Shown: positions 16,105 through 49,511 of the stretch, in pieces
How the letters are laid out: every line of letters starts with the position of its first letter
Position numbering within the stretch: position 1 is the stretch's first letter
Source of the DNA: a virus
Virus record (IMG/VR): IMGVR_UViG_3300014208_000003
Span: 94,263-158,262 of that record
Direction: 5' to 3' (one strand)
Length of the DNA stretch: 64,000 bases
Made by a program: the position numbers and the translations under genes
The notes under the pieces: model-generated
Told to the model about the DNA's origin: nothing
The model's input: only the letters and a program-made list of their open reading frames with translations
Database searches by the model: none

Positions 16105-16424
16105 TAGTTTTCCTTAAATGTGTTGTGGATGGTGGTTATATATTTTAAACAATCTATTTCTAAGAACGGATCCGAAAGCATGTTCAGAACAACTTTTTCA
16201 ACACTGTCCGGAACTTGGTTTATTGCTCTCTGTTTGTTATCTAAATTGTGATCCCATGCTAATTCTGGTTCCGAACATTCTCCCATATTAGTTTCTACTC
16301 TTATCGCAATTACATATTCTCTATCTTCTATTTTTATTAGATTGTCAAAATAGTAGTAATAAATGATCCAATCATCCTCTATCCTGTCCATATTTATAGC
16401 GTACCAGAAACCTTCTAACGCCAT
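16104..16424 (-). CDS. PFFEIDL-tag family member (divergent)
   Basis: C-terminal QVPDSVEKVVLNMLSDPFLEIDCL. Confidence 0.65.
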   Translation of the reverse strand: MALEGFWYAINMDRIEDDWIIYYYYFDNLIKIEDREYVIAIRVETNMGECSEPELAWDHNLDNKQRAINQVPDSVEKVVLNMLSDPFLEIDCLKYITTIHNTFKEN

Positions 16425-26016: not shown

Positions 26017-26200
26017 TTTTATTTAATAATTGTTTTATAATCAATATATTTTCTAAATTTGAATCGATGTATTCTACCATAATAGTTTTAGTATTTTTAT
26101 TTTGATAAGAATTTAATATCTTTCCTTTTTTGAACCAATTGAAAGCAGTTTTGTAACACACATTTTTAATTTTAGCATATTCTGATAATTTTATTATCAT
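25982..26200 (-). CDS. Small MerR-type HTH protein (resembles the IS607 TnpA N-terminal HTH)
   Basis: KLSEYAK..VCYKTAFNWFKKGKI. Confidence 0.65.
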   Translation of the reverse strand: MIIKLSEYAKIKNVCYKTAFNWFKKGKILNSYQNKNTKTIMVEYIDSNLENILIIKQLLNKIEKNIKGEKCD

Positions 26201-35119: not shown

Positions 35120-36004
35120 TCAACCATTTTCTGACATCTTGGACACCATCTCATCCCGAATTCCTTTGCTAATCTTCTCCACCATTTCCATCACATCATT
35201 TCCGACTACCTGTTTAGTACCAGCAGCTTTCGCATGACCACCACCAACATCTAATTTCCGGAGAAGTACACCAATATTTAAATTTGTTACAGTCCTTATT
35301 GAGATAGTGCTTCGTTTAACATTATAACAGAAAGAAAACTTATATCCTTTTTCTTCCATCATTCTGTGACATAAATCATTCAGGAAATCTTCGGCAAAAA
35401 AGAAACAACCATTAATATCCTTAAGTTCTACAATATCCAGATTATTATAAAGATTATTCAAAACCTCTTTCTGAGCATTTACATAATCATTTTCTTCATC
35501 ATTAAAAACCATATTACCATCAAGGAACCGTTCAAAAAATAATTTCTCTTTATACTTCTGGAACATACAATTCAGATCCCACGAAAACGGATATTTCAGA
35601 ATCCACATATCATAATCATTAACAAGCTGTACAAAAGAATGAAACGGAGTATAATCAAAATCAAAAGTCTTATCCAACCATTCAGCAACTAAAGCAGTAC
35701 CACACCTAGTAATATCAATAAAACGGTTTTCTTTTGGACAACTTAATTCGATAGCAGATTCATGATGATCTATGTATATAATTTTTGGATGTTTTAATAG
35801 CTCGTGATTTGTTGGAGAAAGGTCTGAAACAATAACATAATCAAAGGCATTAAAATCAATATTCTGGAACTTCTCGTCGATTTCATAATAGCCCCAATTA
35901 TAGTACGAAATATTATGAAAATAGTTTGCTAATAAAATCTGACAACCAACACCATCTAAATCATTGTGTGAAATAGATAATACTTTAGAATTTTTATTTA
36001 TCAT
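35120..36004 (-). CDS. DHH-family phosphoesterase
   Basis: SHNDLDG, VSDL, IDHH, GGGHAKAAG. Confidence 0.88.
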   Translation of the reverse strand: MINKNSKVLSISHNDLDGVGCQILLANYFHNISYYNWGYYEIDEKFQNIDFNAFDYVIVSDLSPTNHELLKHPKIIYIDHHESAIELSCPKENRFIDITRCGTALVAEWLDKTFDFDYTPFHSFVQLVNDYDMWILKYPFSWDLNCMFQKYKEKLFFERFLDGNMVFNDEENDYVNAQKEVLNNLYNNLDIVELKDINGCFFFAEDFLNDLCHRMMEEKGYKFSFCYNVKRSTISIRTVTNLNIGVLLRKLDVGGGHAKAAGTKQVVGNDVMEMVEKISKGIRDEMVSKMSENG

Positions 36005-36243
36005 CTGTTCTCCTCTTTAAATCTTTCTAAATCAATTTCGAAAAAAGGATCTTGTAACACTTTATCAAACTTTTTTATAACTTCTTTCGGAACATCCTTT
36101 TCAGCGATTTCAAACATTTTATTGAATTTAAGCAGATTGAGAATTGGTATAGATTTTTTTTCGTACCACCCAACAATTATCAAACAAATATTATCTTCAA
36201 TCTTCATCCAATAATTCGATCCCATCCTCTCCCAATATCTCAT
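36001..36243 (-). CDS. PFFEIDL-tag family
   Basis: EKDVPKEV..LQDPFFEIDLERF. Confidence 0.8.
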   Translation of the reverse strand: MRYWERMGSNYWMKIEDNICLIIVGWYEKKSIPILNLLKFNKMFEIAEKDVPKEVIKKFDKVLQDPFFEIDLERFKEENR

Positions 36244-36470
36244 TTATTATTTTCCGACCATCTTTTCAAATCTATCTCAAAGTATGGATCTTTAGTATAT
36301 TTGATGAACTTATTTTTAATCTGCTCTGGAACATTATAGTCACCTTCTTCTTCAAAACGTTTACAAAAATTAACACCGCTAATTGTAAAAGGAGCCGAAT
36401 ACATTACTATTCCTTTCCACCTACAATAATAGAAAAGACCGAATGAACCAAACTCATATTGATTCTGCAT
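36240..36470 (-). CDS. PFFEIDL-tag family
   Basis: NVPEQI..DPYFEIDLKRW. Confidence 0.8.
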   Translation of the reverse strand: MQNQYEFGSFGLFYYCRWKGIVMYSAPFTISGVNFCKRFEEEGDYNVPEQIKNKFIKYTKDPYFEIDLKRWSENNK

Positions 36471-36471
36471 T

Positions 36472-36729
36472 TTAACCTATCCACTTTGCTAAATCAATTT
36501 CGAAAAAAGGATTATCAATATAGTTCCGGAATGCTTCTTGAATATGGTTCGGAATATCGTTGTTGTGGTGTTCTCTGTATTCATTAATATAATTTCTAAA
36601 TCCCAGAATTCCACCACGATATATTAACCAAATATCTACGGTTTTTTTGTGACATAAAAATATTCTGGCATATTCGGGCGCATTGGAAAAACCTCCTAGA
36701 AAGAAACCTTTCGTAACATCAATTTTCAC
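36472..36729 (-). CDS. PFFEIDL-tag family
   Basis: DIPNHI..NPFFEIDLAKW. Confidence 0.8.
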   Translation of the reverse strand: MKIDVTKGFFLGGFSNAPEYARIFLCHKKTVDIWLIYRGGILGFRNYINEYREHHNNDIPNHIQEAFRNYIDNPFFEIDLAKWIG

Positions 36730-36994
36730 TAATAAACCTCGCTAAATCTATCTCAAAGAAAGGATCATTAATATAATTCAGGAATAATTTTTTAATAAAT
36801 TCCGGAAGAGGGATTCCCAACACGTTTTTTGTAAATTCCCATATAAAATAAACTCTTTGTGATTGTTCGTTCCATTTTAAAAATAAATGTCTATAATTAC
36901 TTTTTTTATAATTCAAATCCAGTAACGCATAATTTGTCATAGTAGAACAAGTATATATTCCTTTTGTAATATCTATATTTTCAAGAATTTTCAC
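36719..36994 (-). CDS. PFFEIDL-tag family
   Basis: LPEFI..DPFFEIDLARF. Confidence 0.8.
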   Translation of the reverse strand: MKILENIDITKGIYTCSTMTNYALLDLNYKKSNYRHLFLKWNEQSQRVYFIWEFTKNVLGIPLPEFIKKLFLNYINDPFFEIDLARFISEN

Positions 36995-37298
36995 TGATAA
37001 ACCTTTCCAAATCTATCTCAAAGAATGGATCCGAAATCTTATCATTAACTGCTTTTCGAACTTCTTCCGGAACATCTTTTTCATCATATTCTAACATACC
37101 ATTATTATCACTGTATTTTCTATCATTCCAACTATCCCAAGTAAATTCAAATATTACCTTTCCTCCAAACATAGTAACATATTGTAATCCGAAACTTTTG
37201 GTATATTTTTTATCTATCTTAACTCTTTTCAAAATAATAAACCAGTCATTATCCGGAGGTGCAAAAAGATAAATCGGTTTCAAAATGATCGAATCCAT
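36981..37298 (-). CDS. PFFEIDL-tag family
   Basis: EKDVPEEV..DPFFEIDLERF. Confidence 0.8.
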   Translation of the reverse strand: MDSIILKPIYLFAPPDNDWFIILKRVKIDKKYTKSFGLQYVTMFGGKVIFEFTWDSWNDRKYSDNNGMLEYDEKDVPEEVRKAVNDKISDPFFEIDLERFISENS

Positions 37299-38074
37299 TT
37301 TTCAAGATCTATTTCGAAAAAAGGATCGGCAAGCTTTTCTTTAACACCTTTCACAATATCTTCCGGAACATCTTTTTCAAAAATTGGCTTGCAATGCTGT
37401 TCAAAAATTCTTTTATTTATTCTTTTAAATTTGATGTTATTCTTCCCACGATAATCTAATGCTATTAAATAATCAGAAATGCCCGATATAAAAGATTTCC
37501 CAAGCATATAATTGTTAAAACTCACATTTGTACTTATAAAACAAAACCATCTTCCTTCAATCTCTTTTAATTTATGTTGTTCAAGCATTTTCCGTAATTC
37601 TGGCACGTGATTTTCTACAGGTAATTTTCCACAACAATCTGCCTCACATAATTTTAAAATGTATTCCAGATCATCTCCACATTTTAACAGGAATTTTTTA
37701 ATAGCCTTTCTTGTAGGATTCTTCCGGATTAAATGTGGTCTCATGTGATTGTCAATAATATTCGAAACCTTTATTGCAATATCTTTTTCAATTCCTTCTC
37801 TCTTCATTATTTCATAAGCAAGTCTGGAACCTATTTTCTCGTGATTGTAAAAAGTAATCTTATCACCGTTTATTGATTGTGCTTTTGGTTTACCTATATC
37901 ATGAAACAATGCCGCTAACTGTAAAATATAATCATCCGGAAAATGGGTTTGAACATATTCCAAAACTAGCATTGAATGTATATGTGGGTCGCCTTCGCAA
38001 TGATGTTTTCCATGTTCAACGCCTATCATTGCAAGAACTTCCGGAAGTGCCTTTAAATGGTCTATATCGGTCAT
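37280..38074 (-). CDS. HD-domain protein fused to a PFFEIDL-tag module
   Basis: HHCEGD..HS, LFHDIGK, FYNHE, NHM, EAD; C-terminal EKDVPEDI..DPFFEIDLEKW. Confidence 0.8.
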   Translation of the reverse strand: MTDIDHLKALPEVLAMIGVEHGKHHCEGDPHIHSMLVLEYVQTHFPDDYILQLAALFHDIGKPKAQSINGDKITFYNHEKIGSRLAYEIMKREGIEKDIAIKVSNIIDNHMRPHLIRKNPTRKAIKKFLLKCGDDLEYILKLCEADCCGKLPVENHVPELRKMLEQHKLKEIEGRWFCFISTNVSFNNYMLGKSFISGISDYLIALDYRGKNNIKFKRINKRIFEQHCKPIFEKDVPEDIVKGVKEKLADPFFEIDLEKWIRSF

Positions 38075-38307
38075 TTATTAACCTTACTACTTTTAAATTT
38101 TGCTAATTCAATTTCAAAAAATGGATTCTCGATATATTCCCGAACACTTTTTACAATCTCTTCCGGAACATCTTTTTCTAGAATTTTGAATTCGATATTG
38201 CTAATTCCATACGATAATGATTTTAATCCATCGTGCCTTACATATATCCAAAAATTTGGTTCTACTTTATACCAATACGCATCCGACACAGTTTCCCAAT
38301 AATTCAT
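38071..38307 (-). CDS. PFFEIDL-tag family
   Basis: EKDVPEEI..NPFFEIELAKF. Confidence 0.8.
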   Translation of the reverse strand: MNYWETVSDAYWYKVEPNFWIYVRHDGLKSLSYGISNIEFKILEKDVPEEIVKSVREYIENPFFEIELAKFKSSKVNK

Positions 38308-38703
38308 TTATTCACCAAGAAATTTCAGATATTTAATGTCTAGATCCACTCCGAAATCACGTTTAACAGAAGCTACTAAATCTTTTTCTGTTATTTCGTT
38401 TCGCGATAATTCTTTAACATTATAACTGTAAAAATCAAGAGCAAACATTTTTATTTTACTGTTCAATTTCCAGAATTTATTGGCTTCTGATTTTAGAGAA
38501 CTGGTCTTTTGTTTTCCGCCTTCAAATCTGTACCACAACACCTTTTTAGCATTTGTGTATGTTTTGTAGCCATATCCCTGAGCATCGTCTAGAATTTCTC
38601 CTGTGTCTTTATCAATAATCACGAATCTTTCTTCTGGTCTATTCCAAGGCTCTTCATTATGATTTTTATTCGAAGGCATTTTAACAATAATTTTTTCAGT
38701 CAT
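38308..38703 (-). CDS. Hypothetical phage protein
   Basis: ILDDAQGYGYKT motif; GAGG RBS. Confidence 0.6.
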   Translation of the reverse strand: MTEKIIVKMPSNKNHNEEPWNRPEERFVIIDKDTGEILDDAQGYGYKTYTNAKKVLWYRFEGGKQKTSSLKSEANKFWKLNSKIKMFALDFYSYNVKELSRNEITEKDLVASVKRDFGVDLDIKYLKFLGE

Positions 38704-38869
38704 AAAAACCTCTTATTTTGTAATATTATCTTTCGGATCTGGTTCTTTGTCGATTGCTGTTATTATAATTGCTACTATGAAAAATATTAAACCAACAAAT
38801 AATAGAGAAATACCACTATAAAATAAAACTATTCCGAGACCTTCCATTATAACTCCTTAACTAAAATGG

Positions 38870-39181
38870 CTAAAAAATAAATGTTTGTGGTTCTTTTGGA
38901 GGTTTTATTTTGAATATGGTTTTGAATACTTTTTTCATATCGTTTACATCACAACTAATATCATTCAAAAATATAAAATCCCATCCTTCATCAGACGAAA
39001 CAGAAATTACTTTTCCAAAAACCATATATGCACCAGACATTCCATCACCAATTATTTGATATTTTACTTTTTCATTCCCACCAAGATAATCTTCTAAATG
39101 ATCAGCCCAAACATCTATATCATTAAATTTGTAAGGTAATTTCCAACCATGTACAATAAAATCAGTTCTATCCACACTCAT
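38870..39181 (-). CDS. Hypothetical protein
   Basis: AAGGAG RBS. Confidence 0.55.
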   Translation of the reverse strand: MSVDRTDFIVHGWKLPYKFNDIDVWADHLEDYLGGNEKVKYQIIGDGMSGAYMVFGKVISVSSDEGWDFIFLNDISCDVNDMKKVFKTIFKIKPPKEPQTFIF

Positions 39182-39473
39182 GATTTACTCCTTATTTTCC
39201 GAATCTTCTTGTTTTAGATCCTCTGTGCTATTTTTTGTAAGGACTCCAATCGTCCGGAAATTCCTTTGTATAATTATCTTTAGGATATTTCTTCTCGTAC
39301 TCATCTATCCAACAAAGAACTGTTTTTAATCCGAATCCACATATTATCGAACACACAATCACCAAGATCAAACTCCATACAGAAATATACATCAAAACCT
39401 CCTGAGAAAAAATTAAGGAAAACTGTTGAAACAATCTTCCTTAAGATACTTCATTCAAATCTCAAAAACAAGT

Positions 39474-39757
39474 TTAATCACAAATGATTTCGACTCTGTT
39501 TAAGAATTCCACACCATAACCAATTCCGTTTTCTCTAGCAATTTTTTTCCGATATATGGCTTTCCTTTAACGGTCAAAATAATTAATTCACCCATTTTGT
39601 AAGTAAAATTCGTTTTTAATTTGCACCCAGTTTTAGAAATATTTACTATTGATTCGTCTACACCCTGTTCCCAAATGTGCGATCTCGTATTAATATCTAC
39701 TCGGTGTCTGATCGATTCTCTACATTCTTTATTTGGGGCTTTTAAATGTTTCTTCAT
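39474..39757 (-). CDS. PilZ-domain (c-di-GMP-binding) protein, apparently frameshifted at an A7 run
   Basis: RESIR (RxxxR) and NISKTG (D/NxSxxG); removing one base at 39542-39548 restores GKIARENGIGYGVEF. Confidence 0.7.
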
Positions 39758-39926
39758 AGTTAATCATCAATTTCTTCTAATGATTTTCCTAATGCTTCTG
39801 AAGGTTTAGACACAATGTTCGTTAGTCTCTTTGTTCCGGTCACTTCTCCAACAGCACCGGTAACATCAGAAACTATTTTAAAAGGTGCTGACAATAAATC
39901 TCCGAATAATCCCATAGAAAATCTCC

Positions 39927-41096
39927 TTAAATAATGCTGGTCAAATGTCTAATGAACTTAGGTGATTCTGTCCATCTTGCTTCATCTTCTAGTTTCTGAT
40001 AGCCTTTTGCAACAGTTAAATTATATTCATCTTTCTGAGAATATTTTCTGATAACTTCTTCAATATCTTCTACGGTACAATTATCAAAGACTTTCACCAA
40101 ATTGTTATCATAAGGACTTTCTTCACCATTACTAAAAACAGTTCCGATTGGTATTGCTCCTATTGCCTGTGCTTCTATAGTTTTAATATCTGATTTTGAC
40201 TGGTTGAAATGATTATATGTTAAAGGTGAAATAACAAAATCCGGATTGATCTGTTTCATAGCAAAAGGATAATTGAAAGCGGGTAGCCAATCAATAACAC
40301 GAATTTTATCTTTAATCTCTTCCCAAAACCAAGGACAACCACCCATACAAACAAATGTAATCTTATCTTCTTTTACTGCTTTCAATACCCAATCAGACCA
40401 TGCATTATTCAAATCACCTTTCATCTTTTTAGTATTGGAATAGTGTGTAGGAGAACCATTATAAAGTACAACTGGTTTTTCGATATCTTTCTGGATCTCT
40501 TGTTTCTCAATCTTTCCGGAATACATATATCTTGGAACAGTATTCAGAACCACTTCAATACGCGTTTTAACACCCATATTTTCAAGGTATTTCTTTAAGT
40601 AAGGTGTTGAGACGGTTACTATATCTACCACGTCCATACACTCTCTTACAACGTCTCTATTCTCATCTGTTACTCTATCACTCGCGAAATTATAACTGGG
40701 AATGCCTTCAATATCCGTTCCACCCCATTCTTCATTATGACCGAAAACAAGATCATCCATATCATACACCATACGATATTGTAATTTTTCCTGAAGTCTA
40801 CGATATTCTTTCATTACTGTGAGATGTTCCGGACTCATATTGCGTTGAAACCACATAGTACGTACTCTAATCAATATATCAGACTGCCTTGTGAATAATT
40901 GTGTTAGATGGGGAAGTAATGTTCCCTGTTTCCCGAATAACGATCCCAAATAATTAAATGGCCAAATAGCGCGAATAGTTCCGGAACCAACATGATCGGA
41001 ATAATGTGCTAGAACCACGTTTTTAACTACCTTGATTACATTCTGTTTTTCTGCATGTTTCGTATCTTCTGCTTTAACCTCATCAACTATTCTCAT
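39927..41096 (-). CDS. Glycosyltransferase-like protein
   Basis: WFQR, VYDMDD, VTVST, ISPL..FNQSKSDIKTIEA (GT-B-like). Confidence 0.65.
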   Translation of the reverse strand: MRIVDEVKAEDTKHAEKQNVIKVVKNVVLAHYSDHVGSGTIRAIWPFNYLGSLFGKQGTLLPHLTQLFTRQSDILIRVRTMWFQRNMSPEHLTVMKEYRRLQEKLQYRMVYDMDDLVFGHNEEWGGTDIEGIPSYNFASDRVTDENRDVVRECMDVVDIVTVSTPYLKKYLENMGVKTRIEVVLNTVPRYMYSGKIEKQEIQKDIEKPVVLYNGSPTHYSNTKKMKGDLNNAWSDWVLKAVKEDKITFVCMGGCPWFWEEIKDKIRVIDWLPAFNYPFAMKQINPDFVISPLTYNHFNQSKSDIKTIEAQAIGAIPIGTVFSNGEESPYDNNLVKVFDNCTVEDIEEVIRKYSQKDEYNLTVAKGYQKLEDEARWTESPKFIRHLTSII

Positions 41097-41320
41097 CGTG
41101 TGCCTTTCAAAATGAATTGTTTTCTTTTTTTATTTTGTAGATCGTAAATATCGGATTCTATTAATGTTAATCTTTCCTCGGTAGTTAGATTTGATCTTGT
41201 TATCAAAAACGCCTCTTTAGAATTTTTATATTCTTCGGACAAGCACAATACACATTTAAAATTGTAGTGAGGCGTTGAACTATTACACTTCGGACAAAAA
41301 GTTAAAAATGCCATATTACC

Positions 41321-41773
41321 TCAATAGCAATCTACATTTAAGATTTCTAAAATTTTATTATAATCACTAAATGTCAAACCCTCTATCGGATCTACCATAA
41401 TAAAAAACGGTTCTTGTTCCGGAAGCATTTCTTCGCGATCATCCAGAATCACATATTCTTCATGACCATTTCTTTTTAACCAGTCTTGAATCTCTTCTCC
41501 ACGATTACAAGAGAAGCATCGAGTATATTTATCTTCATGCAAATGCTCTTCCAAACCATATTTCTGTAATTGTTTATGAAGATCTTTTTGATTTGATTCA
41601 CCTACACGCCACGATGAGGATATTACTATTTTTGTATTACTTTTCTCACAAATTGTTTTTAAAAATTTACAAGCCAAATCATCCCAGTCAAACATCATTC
41701 CCTGTGTTGCATAAGCTGTATAGGATTTATCTGTGCATATAGTTCCGTCAATATCCAAAAAAACTATTTTCAT
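41321..41773 (-). CDS. HAD-superfamily phosphatase (HAD_SAK RNA-repair type)
   Basis: FLDIDG, ISSSWR, RGEEIQDWL, YVILDD. Confidence 0.82.
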   Translation of the reverse strand: MKIVFLDIDGTICTDKSYTAYATQGMMFDWDDLACKFLKTICEKSNTKIVISSSWRVGESNQKDLHKQLQKYGLEEHLHEDKYTRCFSCNRGEEIQDWLKRNGHEEYVILDDREEMLPEQEPFFIMVDPIEGLTFSDYNKILEILNVDCY

Positions 41774-42281
41774 TATCTCCCCAATCTGTATTTTAAACGT
41801 CTAATCCAAATAACAATTCGATGTCTAATGAACATTCCTAGATTTTCTTTATAACCAACAGTAAAGCAACAAAAGTCTTTACAAACATTTAGACTATCTT
41901 TATCCTCAAAATGTTTTAAACAATATCCATCTCCTGTTTCTTCTCTGTCTAGATCAATCCCGTTTCTAAAATACAGGCAAAAATCACAAATAGGTTCACA
42001 GAAGTTTTTACATTTTAACATTTAATCTTCGTCCGTTAAAGTTCCGTTATCAGCACCTTTATAGTTATCTTCTTCAAATGTTAAAACTTCTAATGTCATT
42101 TTTTTATCAAGTAACAAAACCTTATTTTCTTCCAAGCCTCTTTTTAATGATTTATATATTTCATTTCCTTGTAGAGTATTAAGAAAACCATCATATCTAA
42201 AAACAAGAATATCCTTTTTAGATATTTTCAAGCTATGTTCTATAGAGATTCCGGAATTATCAACAACACGAATTTTCATCA

Positions 42282-43316
42282 TCATTCTCCTTTATTTGCT
42301 CTATTGTATAATTCCAAAAGCTTCTTCAAAACATTCTCTTTATTATCTATTGTTTGAATGTTTATGTATTCTCTTATTAAATCTTCACTGGAATTAATTT
42401 TAGAAAAGTCCATACCATCAATAAGATCATCACCAAGGATTTCATTATTGATTTTTAGAACGGGAGGAAAAGCAGGTTTATACTCTTCAATTTTCTTAAT
42501 ATATTCCTGAACTTTTTCTTCATCAACTTCACCATCATATTTTACATTAACGTCTACAAAATTATTCCGGATAGTTTCTTCAGTAAATTCTTCCGGAAAA
42601 TTCAATATCTTAAACTGCATGGAAACTTTATTCTCTACAAATTCAAAAGTATTATCGTTCTTTAAAATTGTATAGCCTCGTGGTTCGTTAATATCTCCTC
42701 TTGTAATCTGATATGGAGAACCTATGTAAACAATATTCGTACTAGCAATTTCTTTAATACTTCTTGAATGAAAATGTCCAGTAAAAACATTCTTAAACTT
42801 ATCAACAAAAATATCTAGTGTTAGTCCATCTTCGGTAACTACATCTTTATTCATTGCAAAACCAAATAGATGAAAATGTCCGAAACAATTATTATACTTC
42901 TTTCCGCAAAATTCTAGATGTTCTATAAATGGTTTATCTTCTACTAGCCACGGAACAAATAAATCTTTTCCTATCTCTGTAATTTTATCTATTATCTGTA
43001 CATTTGGAAATTTAGACAAGAACTTTAATGAATGAACATCTATTGTCGAGTTGTAATAAATATCATGATTACCAAGAAGGATTATAACATTAAATTCCGC
43101 AAGATCTATCTCAAAAAGGTCATGAAGAATATTGAAGACTTTAATATTTACTGTTTGCCTTGTATCTAAAATATCACCTAGAATATAAATGTCCTTAATC
43201 TTCTTTGCTTTTGCTTCCGGAATTAGTTGCTCTCTTATGAATTTTAACTGAGAATCTAAAAATATTTCGTTTGCTTTCTTTACACCAAAATGCAGATCAG
43301 ATATTAAAATTTTCAT
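42282..43316 (-). CDS. Recombination nuclease (gp47, Mre11/SbcD-like)
   Basis: SDLHFG, LGD, GNHD, GHFH, YIGSPYQ. Confidence 0.92.
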   Translation of the reverse strand: MKILISDLHFGVKKANEIFLDSQLKFIREQLIPEAKAKKIKDIYILGDILDTRQTVNIKVFNILHDLFEIDLAEFNVIILLGNHDIYYNSTIDVHSLKFLSKFPNVQIIDKITEIGKDLFVPWLVEDKPFIEHLEFCGKKYNNCFGHFHLFGFAMNKDVVTEDGLTLDIFVDKFKNVFTGHFHSRSIKEIASTNIVYIGSPYQITRGDINEPRGYTILKNDNTFEFVENKVSMQFKILNFPEEFTEETIRNNFVDVNVKYDGEVDEEKVQEYIKKIEEYKPAFPPVLKINNEILGDDLIDGMDFSKINSSEDLIREYINIQTIDNKENVLKKLLELYNRANKGE

Positions 43317-43685
43317 CTATACTATCCTTGATTTATATAGGCTTGCTAATTCTTTTTCTATTGTTTCAATCAACTCCGGAATCTTTTCATATTGCTTTCT
43401 AAAAAGATATGCCTTGATTCCAGCTATAGCGTCTTTTATTAATTTTTTATCAACCAAATCTTCTAAAATATTTTCTGTCATCAACGTTTCACTGTCTTTA
43501 TCATATCCCATTCTGTTCACTAATTTATCTACTTCGTCTTTATGTATTTTAAACTGTCCTCTTGGTGGTCTGATTGCTTTTATAGTACCATCTACACACC
43601 AATTAGAAACGGTCTGTCTCGATGTTCCTATAATATGGGCGACTGTTCCGGTTGTGTAGTATAGTTTATTTGGTCTACTACTCAT
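43317..43685 (-). CDS. Excisionase/MerR-type HTH protein
   Basis: YYTTGTVAHIIGTSRQTVSNW..G.IKA.R. Confidence 0.7.
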   Translation of the reverse strand: MSSRPNKLYYTTGTVAHIIGTSRQTVSNWCVDGTIKAIRPPRGQFKIHKDEVDKLVNRMGYDKDSETLMTENILEDLVDKKLIKDAIAGIKAYLFRKQYEKIPELIETIEKELASLYKSRIV

Positions 43686-44043
43686 TTTCTCTGGCCATCT
43701 CCTCTATGAAAGACAACGATATAATTTTTTGATTCCTTCTGTTTATTGCGCCTAGATAATGAGTAAATGTTTTAAAGGCAATCTCTGAGAAATAAGCAAA
43801 AGGATTTCCCCTAGTAATATCATAAGACTTAATATACCGTACCATGTAATAAGTAGCATCCGAAGTCATTTCATCTTTATAATCTTTAGAGTAATTCATG
43901 AAACCGGGCTTCTGTAAAATATTGGAAGTTATCTGAAGAAATATTTTACCAATCTCGTTAAAGCTATACCGATCCTTTTCATTAAACCATTTTTCCAATA
44001 ATTCCTGAAACCTCTTATTGTCCACATAATGCTTCTTTTTCAT
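43678..44043 (-). CDS. Late-transcription sigma factor (T4 gp55-like)
   Basis: HYVDNK, FMNYS..KDEM.SDA, NPFAYFS; located next to gp46/47. Confidence 0.85.
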   Translation of the reverse strand: MKKKHYVDNKRFQELLEKWFNEKDRYSFNEIGKIFLQITSNILQKPGFMNYSKDYKDEMTSDATYYMVRYIKSYDITRGNPFAYFSEIAFKTFTHYLGAINRRNQKIISLSFIEEMARENE

Positions 44044-44375
44044 ATTGGCTGTACATCCTCTACTGATATTTTACACCCATCAAAAACTTTTAAACATTTT
44101 TCATCGTTTATAACATTTTGTATTGTGTTTTCTTTATGATCAAAATTATCGAATACCCAATCATCGGCATTTATCTCAACCTCTAACTTCACAAGATATT
44201 TAGAAGACTTATTTCCGGATGCCTTTAAACAATCATCACAGACAAAAATTTTAAAACTCTCACCGTCAAATTCCGAACCATATTGACAATTAACATTTAC
44301 CTCAGTTCCGGAAGATATAGTGTTAGTCATTGTTATTATTTCCAACTCTTTTTCACATTTAATACATTTGTTCAT
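44040..44375 (-). CDS. Hypothetical Cys-rich protein
   Basis: CIKC...YGSEFD..CDDC. Confidence 0.55.
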   Translation of the reverse strand: MNKCIKCEKELEIITMTNTISSGTEVNVNCQYGSEFDGESFKIFVCDDCLKASGNKSSKYLVKLEVEINADDWVFDNFDHKENTIQNVINDEKCLKVFDGCKISVEDVQPI

Positions 44376-44398
44376 AATTTCTCCTACTTAAATAATAA

Positions 44399-44647
44399 TC
44401 ACTTTGTCGTAGAATGTCTGAATCTTTCTAAATCAATTTCGAAAAAAGGATCTTGTAACTTCTTATCAAACATTTTTACAACATCTTCCGGAACATCCGA
44501 TTCTGGAATTTCTAATATTTGTCGGTATCGCGATCTTTCAAATATCAAATCGCTGTTAGGAATCCTGTTTTTATCAATAGTTCTTAGTGCGATATGTTCA
44601 GTGATTGCCAAATAATAATTTCCAAGACATTCTTCCCAATATCTCAT
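44399..44647 (-). CDS. PFFEIDL-tag family
   Basis: SDVPEDV..LQDPFFEIDLERF. Confidence 0.8.
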   Translation of the reverse strand: MRYWEECLGNYYLAITEHIALRTIDKNRIPNSDLIFERSRYRQILEIPESDVPEDVVKMFDKKLQDPFFEIDLERFRHSTTK

Positions 44648-44910
44648 TTCAAACTTTCTTTGTAACGTATCAGATCAATTTCGAAAAAAGGATTTGAAAT
44701 ATATTCCCAAATCCTTTTCATCACTTCTTCCGGAACATCTTTTTCAAAAACCTCTTTATAATCACTTCTACCACCTTGTATTATCCTAGAACAATAATTA
44801 TTATCTTTGTATCTTTCGGACGTCAAACAAACACCAAACCAAATTTGATCTTCTACTTCTATCCACCATGCATCAGAGTGTTCAGAATATTCTATGTATA
44901 ATTCCTTCAT
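44644..44910 (-). CDS. PFFEIDL-tag family
   Basis: EKDVPEEV..NPFFEIDLIRY. Confidence 0.8.
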   Translation of the reverse strand: MKELYIEYSEHSDAWWIEVEDQIWFGVCLTSERYKDNNYCSRIIQGGRSDYKEVFEKDVPEEVMKRIWEYISNPFFEIDLIRYKESLK

Positions 44911-47096
44911 TCTATCTCTATTCGACTAAAACCATTCACTTTCTTTATTCCGATCCTTCTGTCAAATAATTCTGTATCAAATGTTCTGTGACTAATGATA
45001 TAATAGCTCTGGTTATCTTTGGACATTGCCTTTAAACATAACATCATTTTATCAAGACCTTCTCCATCAACAGCACCATCTAAAAGTTCATCAATAAAAA
45101 GAAGGTTACTATTCCAATTACAGATCATTTTAACAATCTCAATAAATGTAAACAGAATTGATATATCTACTCTTTTCTGTTCTCCTCCGCTCAAAGAATC
45201 ATAACCAACAGGATCGAATCTACTGGCTGTCATATTAAAAACCTTATCTTCCATCTGTTCATCAAAAATTACTTTCAAAGGTAATTCAAATTTATTCAGG
45301 TATTCATTTACTTTAACATTGAACAGAGGAATCAGCTTCTTCATAAAAAATGATTTGATACCAGTTTCGGATAAAATCTCTTGAACAACCAATGCTTCAT
45401 TCAAATCCTTATCAATAGTTTTTGTTGTTTCATATAGCTCTTTGTATTCAGAACATTTTCCTTTAAATGATTCCTCTAATTCTTCAATATTCATTTCAAA
45501 TTTTCTTTTACCGATATCCAGAATTCTATTATTACATTCAACCATCTCTTTTTCGGAATTACTTATTTTCAGACCAATCATTTTAATATCGTTTTCAATC
45601 TTCTGTTTCTGAATCTCTTTTGTCCGAATGCCTTTTACCAATTCTTCTTTCTCTTTCAAACCATCATTCAAAACAGTTACTTCGGAATCTATTTTTATAA
45701 TTTCTTCCTGAATCTCTTTTATCTTTTCGTCCGATATTTCTAATAACTGTTTCTGTATCTCTTTTAACTCATGTTCCAGACCAGCCCTTTCAACAGTCAA
45801 TACCTTTAATTCACTTTCTTTGGATGATCTTGACTCATTGTTCTGTTTAATAGTTTTGATTTTAAGAACCAACTCAGAAATATTTTTGGTGTTATCTGCT
45901 ATTTTCTTTTCACGATCTTCAATAGTAATTCTTAAACTATCTATCGTATCCATTTTATCCACACCATCTATCGCTTCTAATGATTGATAACAGGTAGGAC
46001 AAACATCATTATCCTGTAAAAACTTTCTTTTGGTTTTATCAGAAGAATTATTAGAAACCATTAATGCATTCTCTGTTTTATACTCGCTTACTTTTGTTTC
46101 TAATTCCTGATATTCTTCTTTCTTCAACCATTCAAAATCCTTTTCTATATCAACTTTTTTCAAATCATATTCCGAAATACTCTTCTGTAACTTTTCGGAT
46201 TTTTCTTTAAGAGTAGTTTTGGAAGATGCCTTTGTAACAATCTCTTTATTCAGAACTGTCTTGGATGATAATTTTTCGGCAATATCTTTCGTAAATTGCC
46301 GAATATTAGTTTCTGCTTCTTCTTTACTTTCAATTTTAATAGTGCTAAGAGTCGTTTCTAAAGAGGATAATTCAGAAGCATATATAGTGAGACGGTCTGA
46401 AATATCTTTAATTGTAGACTCTTCTTTTGTTGTATCATCTAATTTCTGCTTATCAAAATTTTCTAGGGCTTTCTTTGTCTGGGTTATATTATTTCGCATC
46501 TGTTTTATAGACTCTTCTAAAACAGTAATTATTTTTCCGTTAGTATCTTTTTGAATCTTTAATCCAGAAATATCCTTCTTAAGACTTTTCAACATCTCAC
46601 CGAAAACTTTTATATTAAAAATGCTTTCAACAATATCTCTTTTTTCCTGAAGCTGCATTTTTAAGAAAGGCTTATTCTGATTAACAGATAACACTAGGAT
46701 CTGCTTGAATAACGTGTAATCTATCCCAAGAATTTTATCAATCTCGTCCTGAATCAATTTTTTTGAAGAAAGCAATTCTAGTTCCTGATCATTCTTATAT
46801 ATTTTAACACTATCCGGTGACATGGTTCTGACTATTCTGTACTCTTCCGAAGCAATATTGAAAAAGCATTCCGTGAACAATCCTTTTTTATTTGTCTTGT
46901 TTATAAGCTCTTTTAATTTAATATCTCTGTAAGGTTTTCCGTAAAGATTGTATGTGAGTGCTTCGGTGATACTTGACTTTCCGCAACCATTCGCAGCAGA
47001 TACATTTATTAGTCCATCATCAAATACAACTTCTGTGATATTGTTTCCATAAGACATGATATTAGAGAATCTTATTTTCTTAAACTTAATGAACAT
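44907..47096 (-). CDS. Recombination ATPase (gp46, Rad50/SbcC-like)
   Basis: NGCGKSS, coiled coil with CPTC hook, LSGGE, FIDE, ISH. Confidence 0.93.
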   Translation of the reverse strand: MFIKFKKIRFSNIMSYGNNITEVVFDDGLINVSAANGCGKSSITEALTYNLYGKPYRDIKLKELINKTNKKGLFTECFFNIASEEYRIVRTMSPDSVKIYKNDQELELLSSKKLIQDEIDKILGIDYTLFKQILVLSVNQNKPFLKMQLQEKRDIVESIFNIKVFGEMLKSLKKDISGLKIQKDTNGKIITVLEESIKQMRNNITQTKKALENFDKQKLDDTTKEESTIKDISDRLTIYASELSSLETTLSTIKIESKEEAETNIRQFTKDIAEKLSSKTVLNKEIVTKASSKTTLKEKSEKLQKSISEYDLKKVDIEKDFEWLKKEEYQELETKVSEYKTENALMVSNNSSDKTKRKFLQDNDVCPTCYQSLEAIDGVDKMDTIDSLRITIEDREKKIADNTKNISELVLKIKTIKQNNESRSSKESELKVLTVERAGLEHELKEIQKQLLEISDEKIKEIQEEIIKIDSEVTVLNDGLKEKEELVKGIRTKEIQKQKIENDIKMIGLKISNSEKEMVECNNRILDIGKRKFEMNIEELEESFKGKCSEYKELYETTKTIDKDLNEALVVQEILSETGIKSFFMKKLIPLFNVKVNEYLNKFELPLKVIFDEQMEDKVFNMTASRFDPVGYDSLSGGEQKRVDISILFTFIEIVKMICNWNSNLLFIDELLDGAVDGEGLDKMMLCLKAMSKDNQSYYIISHRTFDTELFDRRIGIKKVNGFSRIEIE

Positions 47097-47139
47097 GGAA
47101 GACCTTTCTACTGTGTTTTATTGTTAAACGCACTCTTTT

Positions 47140-47167
47140 ATAATAAGCACTTTGAATAGAAAAGCAA
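47140..47167 (-). promoter_or_regulatory. Promoter TTGCTT-N16-TATTAT upstream of gp46
   Basis: Shares TTCAAAGTGCTTAT with 3185-3212. Confidence 0.6.
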
Positions 47168-47343
47168 GACCCTTTCTTTCTGTCTTATCTTTGAGAATCG
47201 GAATCACACTGTTTTAGTCTTTTTTTTTTATTAATATACTTCCCCATTCCTTACCGCTATTAGTAAAGAAGTGTTACAATCATTTTTCTATCATCAAACA
47301 GTCATTTTCAAGTAGTGTTTGATCGGAACGCATGCGCTGTGCA

Positions 47344-47497
47344 AAAATGCCTTATAACGGCATTTTTATCTGTTGTTTATCAAAGGCAGTTTATTTCTGA
47401 ATTCCTAAGTAATTACTGAGGCATTTCTAAAAACTTATTAAGGCATTCCAGAGTAAATTCTATATTAGTTTGATCTAGTATTTTATTAAGGCATTTC
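47344..47497. repeat. Cluster of AGGCATT-like short repeats in a ~580-bp non-coding gap
   Basis: Direct copies near 47357, 47383, 47418, 47435, 47483 and an inverted copy at 47344. Confidence 0.6.
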
Positions 47498-47682
47498 ATT
47501 TAAATATTCCCTAGTAACTTTGCAACAAGAAGAATTTATTGATATCTGACTAAGTTGTATACCGAAGTATCTTAAATATAGAAAGAATTATTGATGAGTT
47601 CTTTTTTACCAATATCTGTGATTAACCTGCTAAAAAATAACAGGAGATAAAAAAACTAACAAAGATGTTCTAAATCTATTTT

Positions 47683-48867
47683 TTAAAGAAGCGGATATTT
47701 ATTGATCCGATATCCTTTATACAATAGTTTCTTCTTAAAGTCTGTATTCGTAATAACAGTCTTTTCCCAACGCTTCTGATACTTAAATTTAGCTCCATCA
47801 GTGAAGAACGCGAAATTACTCGAATGGCATTTTCTTGAATAAATTATATATGCGAGACTAAGTAATTTTTCACGATCACTTTCCGGAGCATTTTTTATAA
47901 CAAAATTTAATTTATTATGTGATTCTACTAAGTTGTTCCAGTCCTTATTTCCATTATATACGTTATCAATACAAGGAAATTTTTTCTGGACATATTTATT
48001 TTTTATAGTTATTGCTGAATTAAAATCTTTTTGGTATATAGTTTTTGTTTGTATTTTTGCATTAATATTTTGTCTGTTAATTAAATGTTCCGTTCCTAAT
48101 AACAAGTCAGAATCTGTTTGTGCTAAATTTGCTGTAGTATTAATAATTCGTTTTGATAATGATTTAATGTCTTTAAAATGATATCTGTCTAATCCTGTTA
48201 TTTCTTGAATTTCTGAATAAGTAACAGGACGTTCAAAAAGTGTGTTGTTAATAAATATTGCGTTACAGTGATTTAAAAAAGTTGATTCGGAAGATAATGT
48301 TTTGTAATATTCAATTGTGTATTTCGTAATTAATAAAGTCTGATTGTAAAAATTGTTTTTAAGATGTAATAGTTTTTTAATTCGTTCAAAGCATTTTATG
48401 GAATCACTTATTGTAAAATTTGCGTTTAAAAGATTGTTTGGATTAGTTTCTTTAGTCGTTATAAATTTTTGTTGGCATAGAAATAATAATGATTTTTGTA
48501 ATTGAATATCGTTAATTTTATGTTTATCTATATTGTGAATTTTTATATTATCAGCAGTTATCGGAATATTTCTTGAACGTAAATGCCTAATTGTAACATA
48601 AACAGAGAAGATATAGGATTTAACTTTCAAGGCATTCATTGCAAAAATAGTGTTATAATCAATCTTGCAAATAGGTAACAATAGATGATTCTGGGGATCA
48701 TTCTCTATATACCATTCAAGAGGTTTCAAATCAGGATTAAAAGAAGGACTCGGAATATTGCCTAAACAGAATCTTTTACCATCTTCTACTGAGCGATATA
48801 TTTCAGAATTAGATTTCTCTTTTTCTTGGTATCTTTGGTCTCTGTTTAATTCTCTGTTAAAAATCAC
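47683..48867 (-). CDS. Orphan 394-aa basic protein, possibly DNA-binding
   Basis: GTG start; HTH-like YSEIQEITGLDR; preceded by element copy C. Confidence 0.55.
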   Translation of the reverse strand: MIFNRELNRDQRYQEKEKSNSEIYRSVEDGKRFCLGNIPSPSFNPDLKPLEWYIENDPQNHLLLPICKIDYNTIFAMNALKVKSYIFSVYVTIRHLRSRNIPITADNIKIHNIDKHKINDIQLQKSLLFLCQQKFITTKETNPNNLLNANFTISDSIKCFERIKKLLHLKNNFYNQTLLITKYTIEYYKTLSSESTFLNHCNAIFINNTLFERPVTYSEIQEITGLDRYHFKDIKSLSKRIINTTANLAQTDSDLLLGTEHLINRQNINAKIQTKTIYQKDFNSAITIKNKYVQKKFPCIDNVYNGNKDWNNLVESHNKLNFVIKNAPESDREKLLSLAYIIYSRKCHSSNFAFFTDGAKFKYQKRWEKTVITNTDFKKKLLYKGYRINKYPLL

Positions 48868-48880
48868 GTTTACCCTTGTT

Positions 48881-48971
48881 CTAAATATTGTTGGTAGGAC
48901 AGTTTGATTTTACCCGTCAAATTGGTTGAACTGATTTATTCAACCTAACTACCACTTTTAATTGTATTTAG
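48881..48971 (-). promoter_or_regulatory. Three-way-junction element with inverted CTAAATA boxes (copy C)
   Basis: GGTAG-TTA-GGTTGAA/TTCAACC-AA-TTTGA/TCAAA-CTGTC-CTACC. Confidence 0.75.
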
Positions 48972-49241
48972 TACGCAATTTTCCTATGTTGACAAAAAAC
49001 TTTTATTCATTCTTTCTATCTTTTTTAAAATCAAAACCTTATAAATGTAAAATAATTTCAAAAAGTTGTTCAAAACCTTATTTTTCAACATAACTACATA
49101 AAATCTCATTATCCTTATTTGTCTCTCCTCCAAAATAATTACAATAAACACTACAAGAAGCACCACCTACAAAATGTTCCGGAAGAAATGGACAAGGAGT
49201 AACACTAACCATTCCTTCTGTTTTAAATTTTATTTTTTTCA

Positions 49242-49511
49242 TTATTTCTCCTGTGCTATAAAACGTTTCAAATCAATTTCGAAAAAAGGATTATCAATAT
49301 AGTTCCGGAATGCTTCTTGAATGTGTATAGGAAGTTTGTCGTAGGCTTGTGATAGATTTAATATAGTGTAGTCCAAAGAGACATTAGAATTTTCATGACG
49401 CAACACATAGGAAATATTATTATGTCTATGAAGTTCAATAAAAACAAGATCCGAAAATCTTCTATCAAACCATCCAAAAGTTACATCAATTTCTTTATTC
49501 AAATCAATCAT
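49242..49511 (-). CDS. PFFEIDL-tag family
   Basis: LPIHIQEAFRNYIDNPFFEIDLKRF. Confidence 0.8.
   Translation of the reverse strand: MIDLNKEIDVTFGWFDRRFSDLVFIELHRHNNISYVLRHENSNVSLDYTILNLSQAYDKLPIHIQEAFRNYIDNPFFEIDLKRFIAQEK

What the first reader, a model, noticed from the sequence alone, without database searches (positions are those of the whole stretch)
36001..49511. Eleven-member family with divergent N-termini and a constant C-terminal 'VPE...DPFFEIDL' tag
Seen: ORFs at 16104, 36001, 36240, 36472, 36719, 36981, 37280, 38071, 44399, 44644 and 49242 all end in roughly (EKD)VPEE(V/I)xxxxxxx(I/L)x(D/N)PFFEIDLx(R/K)(F/W). Their 50-80-aa aromatic-rich N-termini are barely alignable, although sub-types exist (MRYWE/MNYWE; ID(V/I)T(K/F)G). 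Seven form a tightly packed tandem array at 36001-38307. Inference: a modular adaptor repertoire with variable target-binding heads and a shared docking peptide for one hub. Candidate hubs are the two phage ClpP proteases (hydrophobic-pocket docking like ClpX IGF loops), the gp45 clamp, or a host complex. A host-takeover or anti-defence role is possible but not shown.
Basis: partly seen in the sequence, partly recalled or inferred. Interest (0 to 1): 0.85.

Follow-up and report, generated by a model that had tools for sequence, protein, structure and literature searches.

The report
Huge orphan small-protein family in phage
A T4-like phage spends about 6% of its genome on at least 37 copies of a previously undescribed small protein that pairs a fast-changing front half with a nearly constant back half, which looks like a set of binders used against the host, though its function is not shown.

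Summary
All 11 ORFs end in (D)VPE-x11-DPFFEIDLxR, and the complete 158-kb phage genome holds 37 such domains (6.4% of the DNA), mostly in tandem, start/stop-overlapping arrays. Other first readers of this scan noted the same family in other windows of this genome; none had followed it up.

The family matches nothing in Pfam, PHROGs, NCBIfam, PADLOC, PDB or 50,697 phage records. Among 1.84 billion representative proteins, only about 60 foreign relatives exist, all small and metagenomic.

Conservation acts on the protein. Synonymous codons in the tail are close to random.

AlphaFold2 models of two subfamilies give the same small domain: a four-strand beta meander (the variable "head") followed by a helix-turn-helix made by the "tag". 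The tag is therefore predicted to be a folded part of the domain, not a loose docking peptide. However, helix 2 has hydrophobic residues on several faces and invariant acidic residues, so a shared contact surface remains plausible.

The heads evolve fast:
- Copy number differs between related phages.
- Two 99.9%-identical strains differ by four nonsynonymous changes in one head.
- Chimeras show crossovers inside DPFFEID.

My best reading is an early-region repertoire of diversified binders for host takeover or anti-defence, on a new scaffold. ClpP or clamp docking is untested, and the clamp looks unlikely.

The parts
36001..36243 (-). Family member, 80 aa (MRYWE subtype). Its stop overlaps the start of the downstream DHH phosphoesterase gene.
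   Evidence: AF2 model (pLDDT 85.4, pTM 0.69): E3-7, E10-16, E19-24, E32-37, H53-63, H68-79.
36240..36470 (-). Family member, 76 aa (tail DPYFEIDL). Its orthologue P0094 (46% identity) sits next to a stand-alone HD gene in a related phage.
36472..36729 (-). Family member, 85 aa, GTG start (ID[VI]T[KF]G subtype, paired with 49242).
36719..36994 (-). Family member, 91 aa, GTG start.
36981..37298 (-). Family member, 105 aa.
   Evidence: No tblastn match in 50,697 phage records.
37280..38074 (-). Fusion protein, 264 aa: N-terminal HD phosphohydrolase domain plus a complete family domain (residues 169-263).
   Evidence: PF01966, 1.8e-10; phrog_2244; family HMM 1.3e-17 on residues 169-263. In related phage L081 the HD is a separate 174-aa gene (67% identity) followed by a separate member.
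38071..38307 (-). Family member, 78 aa (MNYWE subtype, tail NPFFEIEL).
44399..44647 (-). Family member, 82 aa (MRYWE subtype). It is the closest paralogue of 36001 (47.5% identity).
44644..44910 (-). Family member, 88 aa, immediately downstream of the gp46-like SbcC gene. The related phage has four members at this spot instead of two.
49242..49511 (-). Family member, 89 aa, isolated copy next to a radical-SAM gene.
16104..16424 (-). Divergent family member, 106 aa (tail DPFLEIDC). It lies two genes upstream of one ClpP gene. Its orthologue P0072 occurs in another metagenome.
   Evidence: HMM E=2.2e-17

Best explanation
SHOWN. The ORFs belong to a lineage-specific family of at least 37 members. 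The proteins are small (76-106 aa), mostly acidic and lack hydrophobic leaders. They are encoded in translationally coupled tandem arrays inside the replication and accessory (T4 early/middle-type) regions of a complete 158-kb T4-like phage. The constant 28-residue C-terminal module is kept by purifying selection on the protein. The N-terminal 50-70 residues diverge beyond sequence recognition except within small subfamilies, some of which have orthologues in related phages.

PREDICTED. Each protein is one small alpha/beta domain. The variable part forms a four-strand antiparallel meander. The constant part forms a helix (starting at DVPE), a DPFF turn, and a second helix (EIDLxRF). So the 'tag' is the constant half of the fold.

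INFERRED.
- The family is a diversified repertoire of binding proteins made early in infection for host takeover or anti-defence.
- The exposed sheet and loops give each paralogue its own target.
- The hairpin supplies the folding scaffold.
- The hairpin may also supply a common contact surface for one shared partner or for self-association (about even odds). This rests on its contiguous invariant stretch P-F-F-E-I-D..R, which carries hydrophobic residues on more than one helical face.
- Arrays expand and contract by unequal recombination within the conserved tail-coding stretch.
For: Census and arrangement: searches give 37 domains, 10.1 kb, 6.4% of the genome, with 1-19-nt gene overlaps.

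Orphan status: no Pfam, PHROG, NCBIfam or PADLOC match. No PDB sequence match. No fold match (best Z 4.3 and 4.9). No INPHARED match. Only 96 hits among 1.84e9 representatives, of which 36 are this phage's own and the rest are 35-122 aa, apart from one 712-aa repeat protein that I take to be spurious.

Selection on the protein: at identical tail residues the codons agree 57.3% of the time, against 52.5% expected from codon usage. The maximum paralogue identity is 48%.

Fold: two AF2 models from different subfamilies share the topology of 4 strands plus a C-terminal helical hairpin, and the tail has the highest pLDDT. Helix 1 has hydrophobic moment 0.51 against 0.33 when shuffled. Helix 2 is not amphipathic (0.37 against 0.35). 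The tail is 43% hydrophobic. Information content is 3.3-4.1 bits at P, E, P, F, F, E, I, D and R.

Fast, target-like evolution of the heads:
- In syntenic phage fragment L081, core genes are 60-84% identical, but members are at most 46% identical and differ in number, 4 against 2 beside gp46.
- L080 and L081 are 99.88% identical. Their 9 differences are 5 synonymous changes in gp46 and 4 nonsynonymous changes in codons 19-27 of one head.

Recombination: variants within 90% clusters are chimeras with the junction at DPFFEID.

Early or accessory context: the arrays run in the same direction as DNA polymerase, gp46/47, gp55, UvsX, helicase, an HD protein and a DHH protein. No TATAAATA late-promoter box lies near the arrays.
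Against: - No function, partner or expression was measured.
- AF2 confidence is moderate: the five models of the first job range from 64 to 85 pLDDT, and the ESM Atlas's own model of the same protein is poor, with pTM 0.44.
- I could not inspect coordinates, so packing of the FF pair is inferred from periodicity only.
- The heads of different subfamilies cannot be linked by sequence profiles. A common fold for all 37 rests on two models and on weakly conserved aromatic columns.
- The four clustered nonsynonymous differences could come from one recombination patch or a strain-mix assembly artefact rather than from selection.
- The early timing is inferred from position only. The sigma-70 scans were uninformative in this AT-rich DNA.
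Confidence: 0.5

Rival explanations
1. The proteins are substrate adaptors. The variable head captures a host protein, and the constant module docks on a proteolytic hub, namely the phage's two ClpP paralogues working with a host Clp unfoldase. The target is then degraded. This would resemble F-box or PRANC receptor families.
For: Two ClpP genes are present (window 3786-4340 and 14616-15245). The genome has no AAA_2 unfoldase, so the phage ClpPs must cooperate with host factors. One member lies two genes from a ClpP gene. The invariant hydrophobic and acidic stretch on a non-amphipathic helix could be a docking surface. A phage adaptor-like protein for ClpCP is known: SPO1 Gp53 (bioRxiv 10.1101/569657). 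Weak, noise-level structural resemblance to HspQ (5ycq) and PDIP38 (6zlx) appears with both models, at Z 3.3-4.0.
Against: The tail is predicted folded against the head, not as a linker plus peptide like the SspB XB tail. It contains no (I/L/V)-G-(F/L) tripeptide of the kind that docks on ClpP (established knowledge of ClpX/ClpA loops; motif). The Z scores lie below the tool's stated noise level of 7-8. Co-occurrence with ClpP could not be tested because all relatives are short fragments.
Confidence: 0.15
2. The constant module is only a folding scaffold and there is no shared partner. The family is simply a fast-evolving single-domain inhibitor or decoy family, and the sharp contrast between head and tail reflects diversifying selection on the sheet alone.
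For: The predicted domain is compact. Helix 1 is amphipathic. Both helices begin with D/N/S-x-P-type capping sequences, and D..R spacing is compatible with an intrahelical salt bridge. Aromatic positions in the strands are semi-conserved.
Against: Six contiguous, near-invariant residues, including two acidic ones, on a helix whose hydrophobic residues point to several sides are more than a scaffold usually requires.
Confidence: 0.2
3. The proteins bind small molecules or nucleic acids, for example as sponges for immune signalling nucleotides or as RNA binders. The aromatic-rich sheet would be the ligand site.
For: The sheets are aromatic-rich. The arrays are flanked by HD, DHH, NTP-transferase and RlaP genes. 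Noise-level fold resemblance to Sm-like, PUR, Tudor and KOW domains, and a TM of 0.43 to a Tad2-like cluster.
Against: Ligand-binding families normally conserve the pocket, and here the sheet is the least conserved part. Most members are acidic, with median pI 5.1, which argues against nucleic-acid binding. All structural resemblances are below the noise level.
Confidence: 0.08
4. The proteins are packaged internal proteins, analogous to T4 IPI-III and Alt. The constant module would be a capsid-targeting signal, and the proteins would be injected to disarm host defences.
For: T4 internal proteins are small, hypervariable between phages and share one short targeting sequence (established knowledge). 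Several window members carry (I/V)-x-E just before KDVPE, which resembles T4 prohead-protease sites.
Against: The constant part is C-terminal and predicted folded. The genes sit in replication or early-type blocks without TATAAATA boxes. Most members are acidic, unlike the basic T4 internal proteins. The (I/V)-x-E pattern occurs in only a minority.
Confidence: 0.05

Closest known systems
T4 internal proteins IPI/IPII/IPIII and Alt, which share a capsid-targeting sequence
   Same: They occur in T4-type phages. Several small, otherwise divergent accessory proteins share one short conserved segment. They lie in plastic genome regions and have anti-defence roles (IPI*).
   Different: The T4 signal is an N-terminal peptide of about 10 aa that is cleaved off. 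Here the constant part is a C-terminal 28-aa module predicted to be a folded helical hairpin. There is no sequence similarity, there are 37 copies rather than 3-4, and no late promoters lie nearby.
Poxvirus ankyrin/PRANC and cellular F-box substrate-receptor families
   Same: Large paralogous families combine a variable target-binding part with a constant C-terminal module that docks on one hub.
   Different: There is no homology. The whole protein is only about 85 aa, the constant module appears integral to the single domain, and no hub has been identified or tested.
SPO1 Gp53 and bacterial Clp/Lon adaptors (SspB, ClpS, HspQ/YccV, PDIP38)
   Same: These are small proteins that redirect AAA+ proteases. 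Gp53 shows that phages do this (10.1101/569657). HspQ and PDIP38 appear among the weak structural neighbours of both models.
   Different: Z scores of 3.3-4.0 are at noise level. There is no sequence match, and the family has no flexible linker plus terminal docking peptide of the kind SspB has.
Tandem arrays of polymorphic-toxin immunity proteins (SUKH/Imm families)
   Same: Both are tandem arrays of many small, strongly diverged paralogues, each thought to neutralise a different protein.
   Different: There is no Pfam match to any Imm or SUKH family. The genes are encoded by a lytic-type phage, and the family has its own sharply conserved C-terminal module.
SPO1/T4 'host-takeover' clusters of small early genes
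   Same: Both are dense, co-directional, translationally coupled blocks of small early-region genes without database matches.
   Different: Those clusters consist of unrelated genes. Here a single family is amplified 37-fold.

Membership tests
Any curated protein family (Pfam-A, PHROGs v4, NCBIfam 20, PADLOC-DB 2) | A significant profile-HMM match of the small members. | tested here: not met
   No family is hit by more than one member. The single best hit is E=2.4e-4 in NCBIfam, for one of 36 members. The Pfam, PHROG and PADLOC hits on the small members are E>=0.004. Only the HD part of ORF 37280-38074 matches (PF01966).
HD-domain phosphohydrolases (N-terminal part of ORF 37280-38074 only) | A match to PF01966 above the gathering score. 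| tested here: met
   41.5 bits against a cut-off of 22, residues 33-124; phrog_6931 and phrog_2244.
SspB-type protease adaptors | A substrate-binding domain followed by a disordered linker and a short terminal docking peptide. | tested here: not met
   The constant tail is predicted as two helices with pLDDT 83-93, immediately after the sheet, with no low-confidence linker.
Clp/Lon adaptor folds (HspQ/YccV, PDIP38, ClpS) | Clear structural similarity to the adaptor domain. | tested here: inconclusive
   5ycq gives Z 4.0 and 3.3, and 6zlx gives Z 4.0 and 3.6. These tie with unrelated rows and are below the tool's stated noise level.
ClpP-docking loops (ClpX IGF, ClpA IGL type) | An (I/L/V)-G-(F/L) tripeptide on a flexible loop. 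| tested here: not met
   No conserved glycine occurs in the constant module. The conserved stretch is D-P-F-F-E-I-D.
T4-type sliding-clamp (gp45) interaction tails | An [ST]L[SD]xF[LI]-like motif at the extreme C-terminus, as on gp43, gp55 and gp33. | tested here: not met
   This phage's gp55 ends in ..SLSFIEEMARENE and its DNA polymerase ends in ..PTLSTFLRKKEK. The family motif lacks the (S/T)-L-x-x-F core and lies within a predicted helix.
T4 internal proteins (capsid-targeting sequence) | A conserved N-terminal targeting peptide with an L/I-x-E cleavage site, plus late expression. | tested here: not met
   The conserved part is C-terminal. No TATAAATA box lies near the arrays. Expression itself was not measured.
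Diversity-generating retroelement targets | A reverse transcriptase and a template repeat in the same genome. | tested here: not met
   PF00078 has no match in the complete genome.
Helix-turn-helix DNA-binding domains | A basic recognition helix and matches to HTH profiles. | tested here: not met
   The mean net charge of the tail is -1.4. Helix 2 carries invariant E and D. No HTH Pfam hit was found.

The most novel reading that the evidence does not exclude
The phage carries a combinatorial 'substrate-receptor' system. About 37 receptors have hypervariable heads and share one folded docking module. That module recruits chosen host proteins, such as defence factors, to a common machine. The most exciting candidate machine is the phage's own pair of ClpP proteases working with a hijacked host unfoldase. 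This would be a bacterial-virus counterpart of F-box/SCF or poxvirus ANK-PRANC families.
Probability: 0.1. Interest if true: 0.9.

Novelty: new variant of a known kind. Interest (0 to 1): 0.62.

Why it matters
Large phages carry many small early genes of unknown function, and several of those have turned out to be inhibitors of host machines or immune systems. Here one unknown fold has been amplified to 37 diverged, intact copies (6.4% of the genome), with a sharp split between a hypervariable half and a constant half. Few natural cases separate the specificity part of a binder from its constant part so cleanly.

If the members bind different host targets, the family would offer three things:
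- a ready-made panel of probes for host defence or physiology;
- a compact natural scaffold of about 80 aa for binder engineering;
- a case study of how phage gene families expand by unequal recombination.

If the constant module docks on a hub such as Clp, it would be the first multi-receptor targeting system described in a phage, as far as I know.

Tried and rejected
- Complex prediction on two copies of the 36001 member returned no verdict. It counts neither for nor against self-association.
- Fold searches gave nothing above noise: Foldseek against PDB and BFVD, VIA-align wide for both models, and the ESM Atlas by shape and by features.
- The PDB sequence profile search gave nothing below E=0.6.
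- The search for related loci could not use the family alignment. Used with the neighbouring 260-aa NTase-like protein, it found no IMG/VR relative.
- Degenerate DPFFEIDL DNA pattern scans of IMG/VR and JGI metagenomes returned only chance matches. A family HMM run over all fetched loci hit only L003.
- The 'longer' protein search found no fused forms, but it also missed the phage's own HD fusion, so this is weak evidence.
No read-level or expression data could therefore be obtained, and read laying was not used.
- Host identification through the TnpB-like transposase failed: the best identity was 44%, across unrelated phyla.
- Sigma-70 promoter scans were no better than shuffles.
- Gene conversion as the cause of the constant tail is rejected, because synonymous sites are near random. 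Only a few pairs share nearly identical 33-mers.
- The idea that the over-represented TTCCGGAA palindrome drives VPE conservation is rejected as family-specific. CCG is used in 72% of family VPE codons against 65% in the same codon context genome-wide (p=0.39). Proline is also kept where the site is lost.
- A DGR mechanism is rejected, since the genome has no reverse transcriptase.
- GIY-YIG nuclease and HTH DNA-binding ideas are rejected. There are no profile hits, the predicted topology is different, and the tail is acidic.

Full report
OBSERVATION

A six-frame regular-expression scan finds the PFFEID-type core at exactly these 11 places in the window and nowhere else. In a MAFFT alignment of the 11, two prolines, E and I are invariant, and F, F, D and L are at least 90% conserved.

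The heads carry 15.7% F+W+Y, against 10.4% in the phage's long ORFs.

One item needs correction. ORF 37280-38074 is a 264-aa fusion of an HD phosphohydrolase domain (PF01966, E=1.8e-10) with a complete family domain at residues 169-263.

SIZE OF THE FAMILY

The window is the last 64 kb of a complete 158,262-bp virus record with direct terminal repeats. A profile of the 11 members, and later a profile of 83 sequences, finds 37 family domains in that genome. Eleven lie in the window, one lies at 86.6 kb, and about 25 lie in a second cluster at 58.5-69.3 kb, arranged as opposed arrays. Together they occupy 10.1 kb, or 6.4% of the genome.

One copy (L001:10242-10525) is broken by a 1-nt frameshift. 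Neighbouring genes overlap by 1-19 nt, or abut, which is typical of translationally coupled operons. Other first readers flagged the same family in other windows of this genome. None had been followed up.

WHAT KIND OF PHAGE AND WHICH REGION

The window encodes the following:
- a T4-type DNA polymerase, gp46/gp47-like nuclease subunits and a gp55-like late sigma factor;
- UvsX, gp32, helicases and ribonucleotide reductase;
- two ClpP paralogues;
- homing endonucleases, a TnpB-like transposase and a radical-SAM protein.

gp46 is only 25-31% identical to that of cultured T4-like phages, and megablast finds no relative.

All window members run in the same direction as this replication and accessory block. 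The T4 late-promoter box TATAAATA is absent near the arrays. Early or middle expression is therefore an inference from position, not a measurement. Sigma-70 scans were uninformative.

IS IT A KNOWN FAMILY?

No. The evidence is:
- Pfam, PHROGs, NCBIfam and PADLOC give no family hit by more than one member. The best single hit is E=2.4e-4 for one of 36 members in NCBIfam, and Pfam, PHROG and PADLOC hits on the small members are E>=0.004.
- The PDB sequence profile search gives nothing below E=0.6.
- tblastn against 50,697 phage records finds nothing at E<=1.
- An exhaustive HMM search of 1.84 billion representative proteins finds only 96 proteins at E<1e-3. Of these, 36 are this phage's own. The rest are unnamed metagenomic proteins of 35-122 aa, plus one 712-aa repeat protein that I take to be spurious.
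- Pattern scans of IMG/VR and JGI contigs found no further true members.

SELECTION ACTS ON THE PROTEIN

Within the tail, pairs of members that share an amino acid use the same codon 57.3% of the time, against 52.5% expected from the phage's codon usage. Synonymous sites are therefore essentially randomised, so recent gene conversion or a DNA-level signal does not explain the constant tail. No two paralogues exceed 48% identity, so the copies are old and individually maintained.

Information content peaks at 3.3-4.1 bits in V-P-E and in the contiguous stretch P-F-F-E-I-D, plus R three residues later.

HEADS

With the tail removed, BLAST links heads only into groups of up to 5, and shuffled heads give no links. 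Iterated HMMs with 20-fold decoys extend groups to at most 6 without joining them.

Several groups contain proteins from other phages, for example the M-x-Y-W-E group with P0042 and P0045, 36240 with P0094, and 16104 with P0072. The subtypes therefore predate the split of these phages.

Weakly conserved aromatic and aliphatic columns recur along the heads.

STRUCTURE PREDICTION

AlphaFold2 was run on two members:
- The 80-aa member 36001-36243, with the 36-paralogue alignment, gives pLDDT 85.4 and pTM 0.69. It has four strands (3-7, 10-16, 19-24, 32-37) and then helices 53-63 and 68-79.
- A 100-aa member of a different subfamily (L001:3998-4300), with an 83-sequence alignment, gives pLDDT 75 and pTM 0.62. 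It has the same order of elements plus one inserted helix.

In both models the tail is the most confident part. The 'tag' is thus predicted to be a helix, a DPFF turn and a second helix, belonging to one compact domain.

Helix 1 is amphipathic, with moment 0.51 against 0.33 for shuffles. Helix 2 is not (0.37 against 0.35), because its conserved F, F, I, L and F point to more than one side and alternate with invariant E and D. In an 80-residue two-layer protein such a helix cannot be buried on all sides. Part of the invariant stretch is therefore probably exposed. This keeps open a shared contact surface, whether for a partner or for self-association.

There are three caveats. I could not read coordinates, so burial is not measured. 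The spread among the five models is wide. The ESM Atlas model of the same protein is poor.

No fold match rises above noise. The best Z scores are 4.3 and 4.9. HspQ and PDIP38 recur at Z 3.3-4.0, tied with unrelated rows.

TURNOVER AND DIVERSIFICATION

Two metagenomic fragments (L081 from ENA and L080 from Logan) are syntenic with window 36-47 kb. In them gp46 is 65% identical, gp55 60%, gp47 76%, the glycosyltransferase 84% and the HD protein 67%. Family members reach at most 46% identity. There are four members beside gp46 instead of two, and the HD protein is a stand-alone 174-aa gene followed by a separate member. The HD fusion in the window is therefore lineage-specific and says little about function.

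L080 and L081 are 99.88% identical over 7.46 kb. Their nine differences are five synonymous changes in gp46 and four nonsynonymous changes in codons 19-27 of one family head. By my own arithmetic, outside the tool calls, the 4:0 against 0:5 split has a chance of about 1 in 126. A single recombination patch or a mixed-strain assembly could also produce it.

Within 90%-identity clusters, variants share the head but switch to another member's C-terminal end exactly after DPFFEID, for example P0031 against P0098, whose end is close to that of P0048. Others are truncated. This is the footprint of unequal recombination in the conserved tail-coding stretch, and it gives a simple mechanism for array contraction and expansion.

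A third fragment (L003) carries five or six members next to the homologue of the NTase-like gene that borders the second cluster.

The genome has no reverse transcriptase, so a DGR is excluded.

THE HUB CANDIDATES

Two ClpP genes exist (window 3786-4340 and 14616-15245), and the genome has no AAA_2-type unfoldase. The phage ClpPs would therefore need host partners.

The family tail has no (I/L/V)-G-(F/L) tripeptide and no flexible linker, so it does not look like known ClpP-docking or ClpX-docking elements. A folded module could still dock in another way. A phage adaptor-like protein for ClpCP has been described: SPO1 Gp53 (10.1101/569657).

For the clamp, the phage's own gp55 and DNA polymerase end in SLSFI-type and TLSTFL-type tails. 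These match the T4 rule for gp45-binding tails and do not resemble DPFFEIDL, so the clamp is unlikely.

The one complex job I could run tested two copies of one member and returned no verdict. It counts for nothing either way.

INTERPRETATION

Shown: this is a real, very large orphan paralogue family with a protein-level constant module and fast-evolving heads. It sits in tandem arrays in early-type regions, and its copy number changes by recombination.

Predicted: each protein is a single small alpha/beta domain, with the constant module as a helical hairpin.

Inferred: the family is a repertoire of diversified binders for host takeover or anti-defence. The constant hairpin acts as the scaffold and, with about even odds, as a common interface.

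The broader logic of variable heads on a constant module is supported. I give about 0.15 to the specific Clp-adaptor model and about 0.5 to the general binder-repertoire reading.

NOVELTY

I know of no described phage family with this architecture or this degree of amplification. The database searches above, two literature searches for such a family and one for the TTCCGGAA palindrome in phages found none. Because the function is unproven, I class it as a new variant of a known kind, namely lineage-specific families of small early accessory proteins, rather than as categorically new.

Noticed in passing
Whole genome: window 1-64000 (102 sites), G000:C1:64296-64912 and L001:4830-5200: The palindrome TCCGGA occurs 301 times in the genome against 11.7 expected (26-fold), and 160 of these are TTCCGGAA. 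Most other GC-containing 6-bp palindromes occur 0-2 times. In the codon context xxT-CCN-GAx, CCG is used 65% of the time against 25% overall, so 26 of 36 family VPE motifs are GT-TCCGGA-A. The densest cluster in the genome (10 sites in 617 bp, plus half-site variants) is the non-coding DNA between the two divergent family arrays. A second cluster lies upstream of the 58.5-61.8 kb array. The related fragments L003, L080 and L081 show 60-80-fold enrichment. This looks like a binding site for a clade-specific DNA-binding protein, in the manner of a promoter, operator or iteron. Its function is unknown.
   Followed up: partly
window 37280-38074 compared with L081:7098-7872: The HD-domain protein is fused to a family domain in this phage. 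In a related phage it is a separate 174-aa gene followed by a separate member. The fusion probably arose by loss of the stop codon between overlapping genes.
   Followed up: yes
L001:10242-10525 (G000:C1:67242-67525): One family copy is split by a 1-nt frameshift near CGTTGGTTTATGG, which leaves a 47-aa ORF carrying only the tail. It is either a pseudogene or an assembly error.
   Followed up: partly
window 3786-4340 and 14616-15245: The genome has two ClpP paralogues (PF00574, E about 1e-27 and 1e-29) but no AAA_2 (ClpX/ClpA-type) unfoldase anywhere in the 158-kb genome.
   Followed up: partly
window 33647-34924, 31154-32032 and 26197-26913; L001:6579-7295: Mobile elements lie inside the replication block: a TnpB/IS605-type transposase-like gene (at most 44% identical to any of 185,579 species genomes) and three HNH or homing endonuclease genes. 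One of these sits between the divergent family arrays.
   Followed up: partly
window 35120-36004; L001:747-1529 and L001:11033-12043: The arrays are bordered by nucleotide- or RNA-handling accessory genes: a DHH phosphoesterase whose start overlaps the stop of the last array gene, an NTP-transferase-like protein, and an RlaP (RNA-repair-associated pol-beta family) nucleotidyltransferase.
   Followed up: no
window 28872-28991 and 43678-43800: The C-termini of the DNA polymerase (..PTLSTFLRKKEK) and of gp55 (..SLSFIEEMARENE) share an [ST]LSxF[LI] element. This is probably the phage's sliding-clamp-binding motif.
   Followed up: no
L080:1-1184 compared with L081:1-381: Two otherwise 99.88%-identical phage fragments diverge upstream of the gp46 C-terminal part. 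L081 carries a DnaB-like fragment there, which suggests a rearrangement or an insertion within gp46.
   Followed up: no
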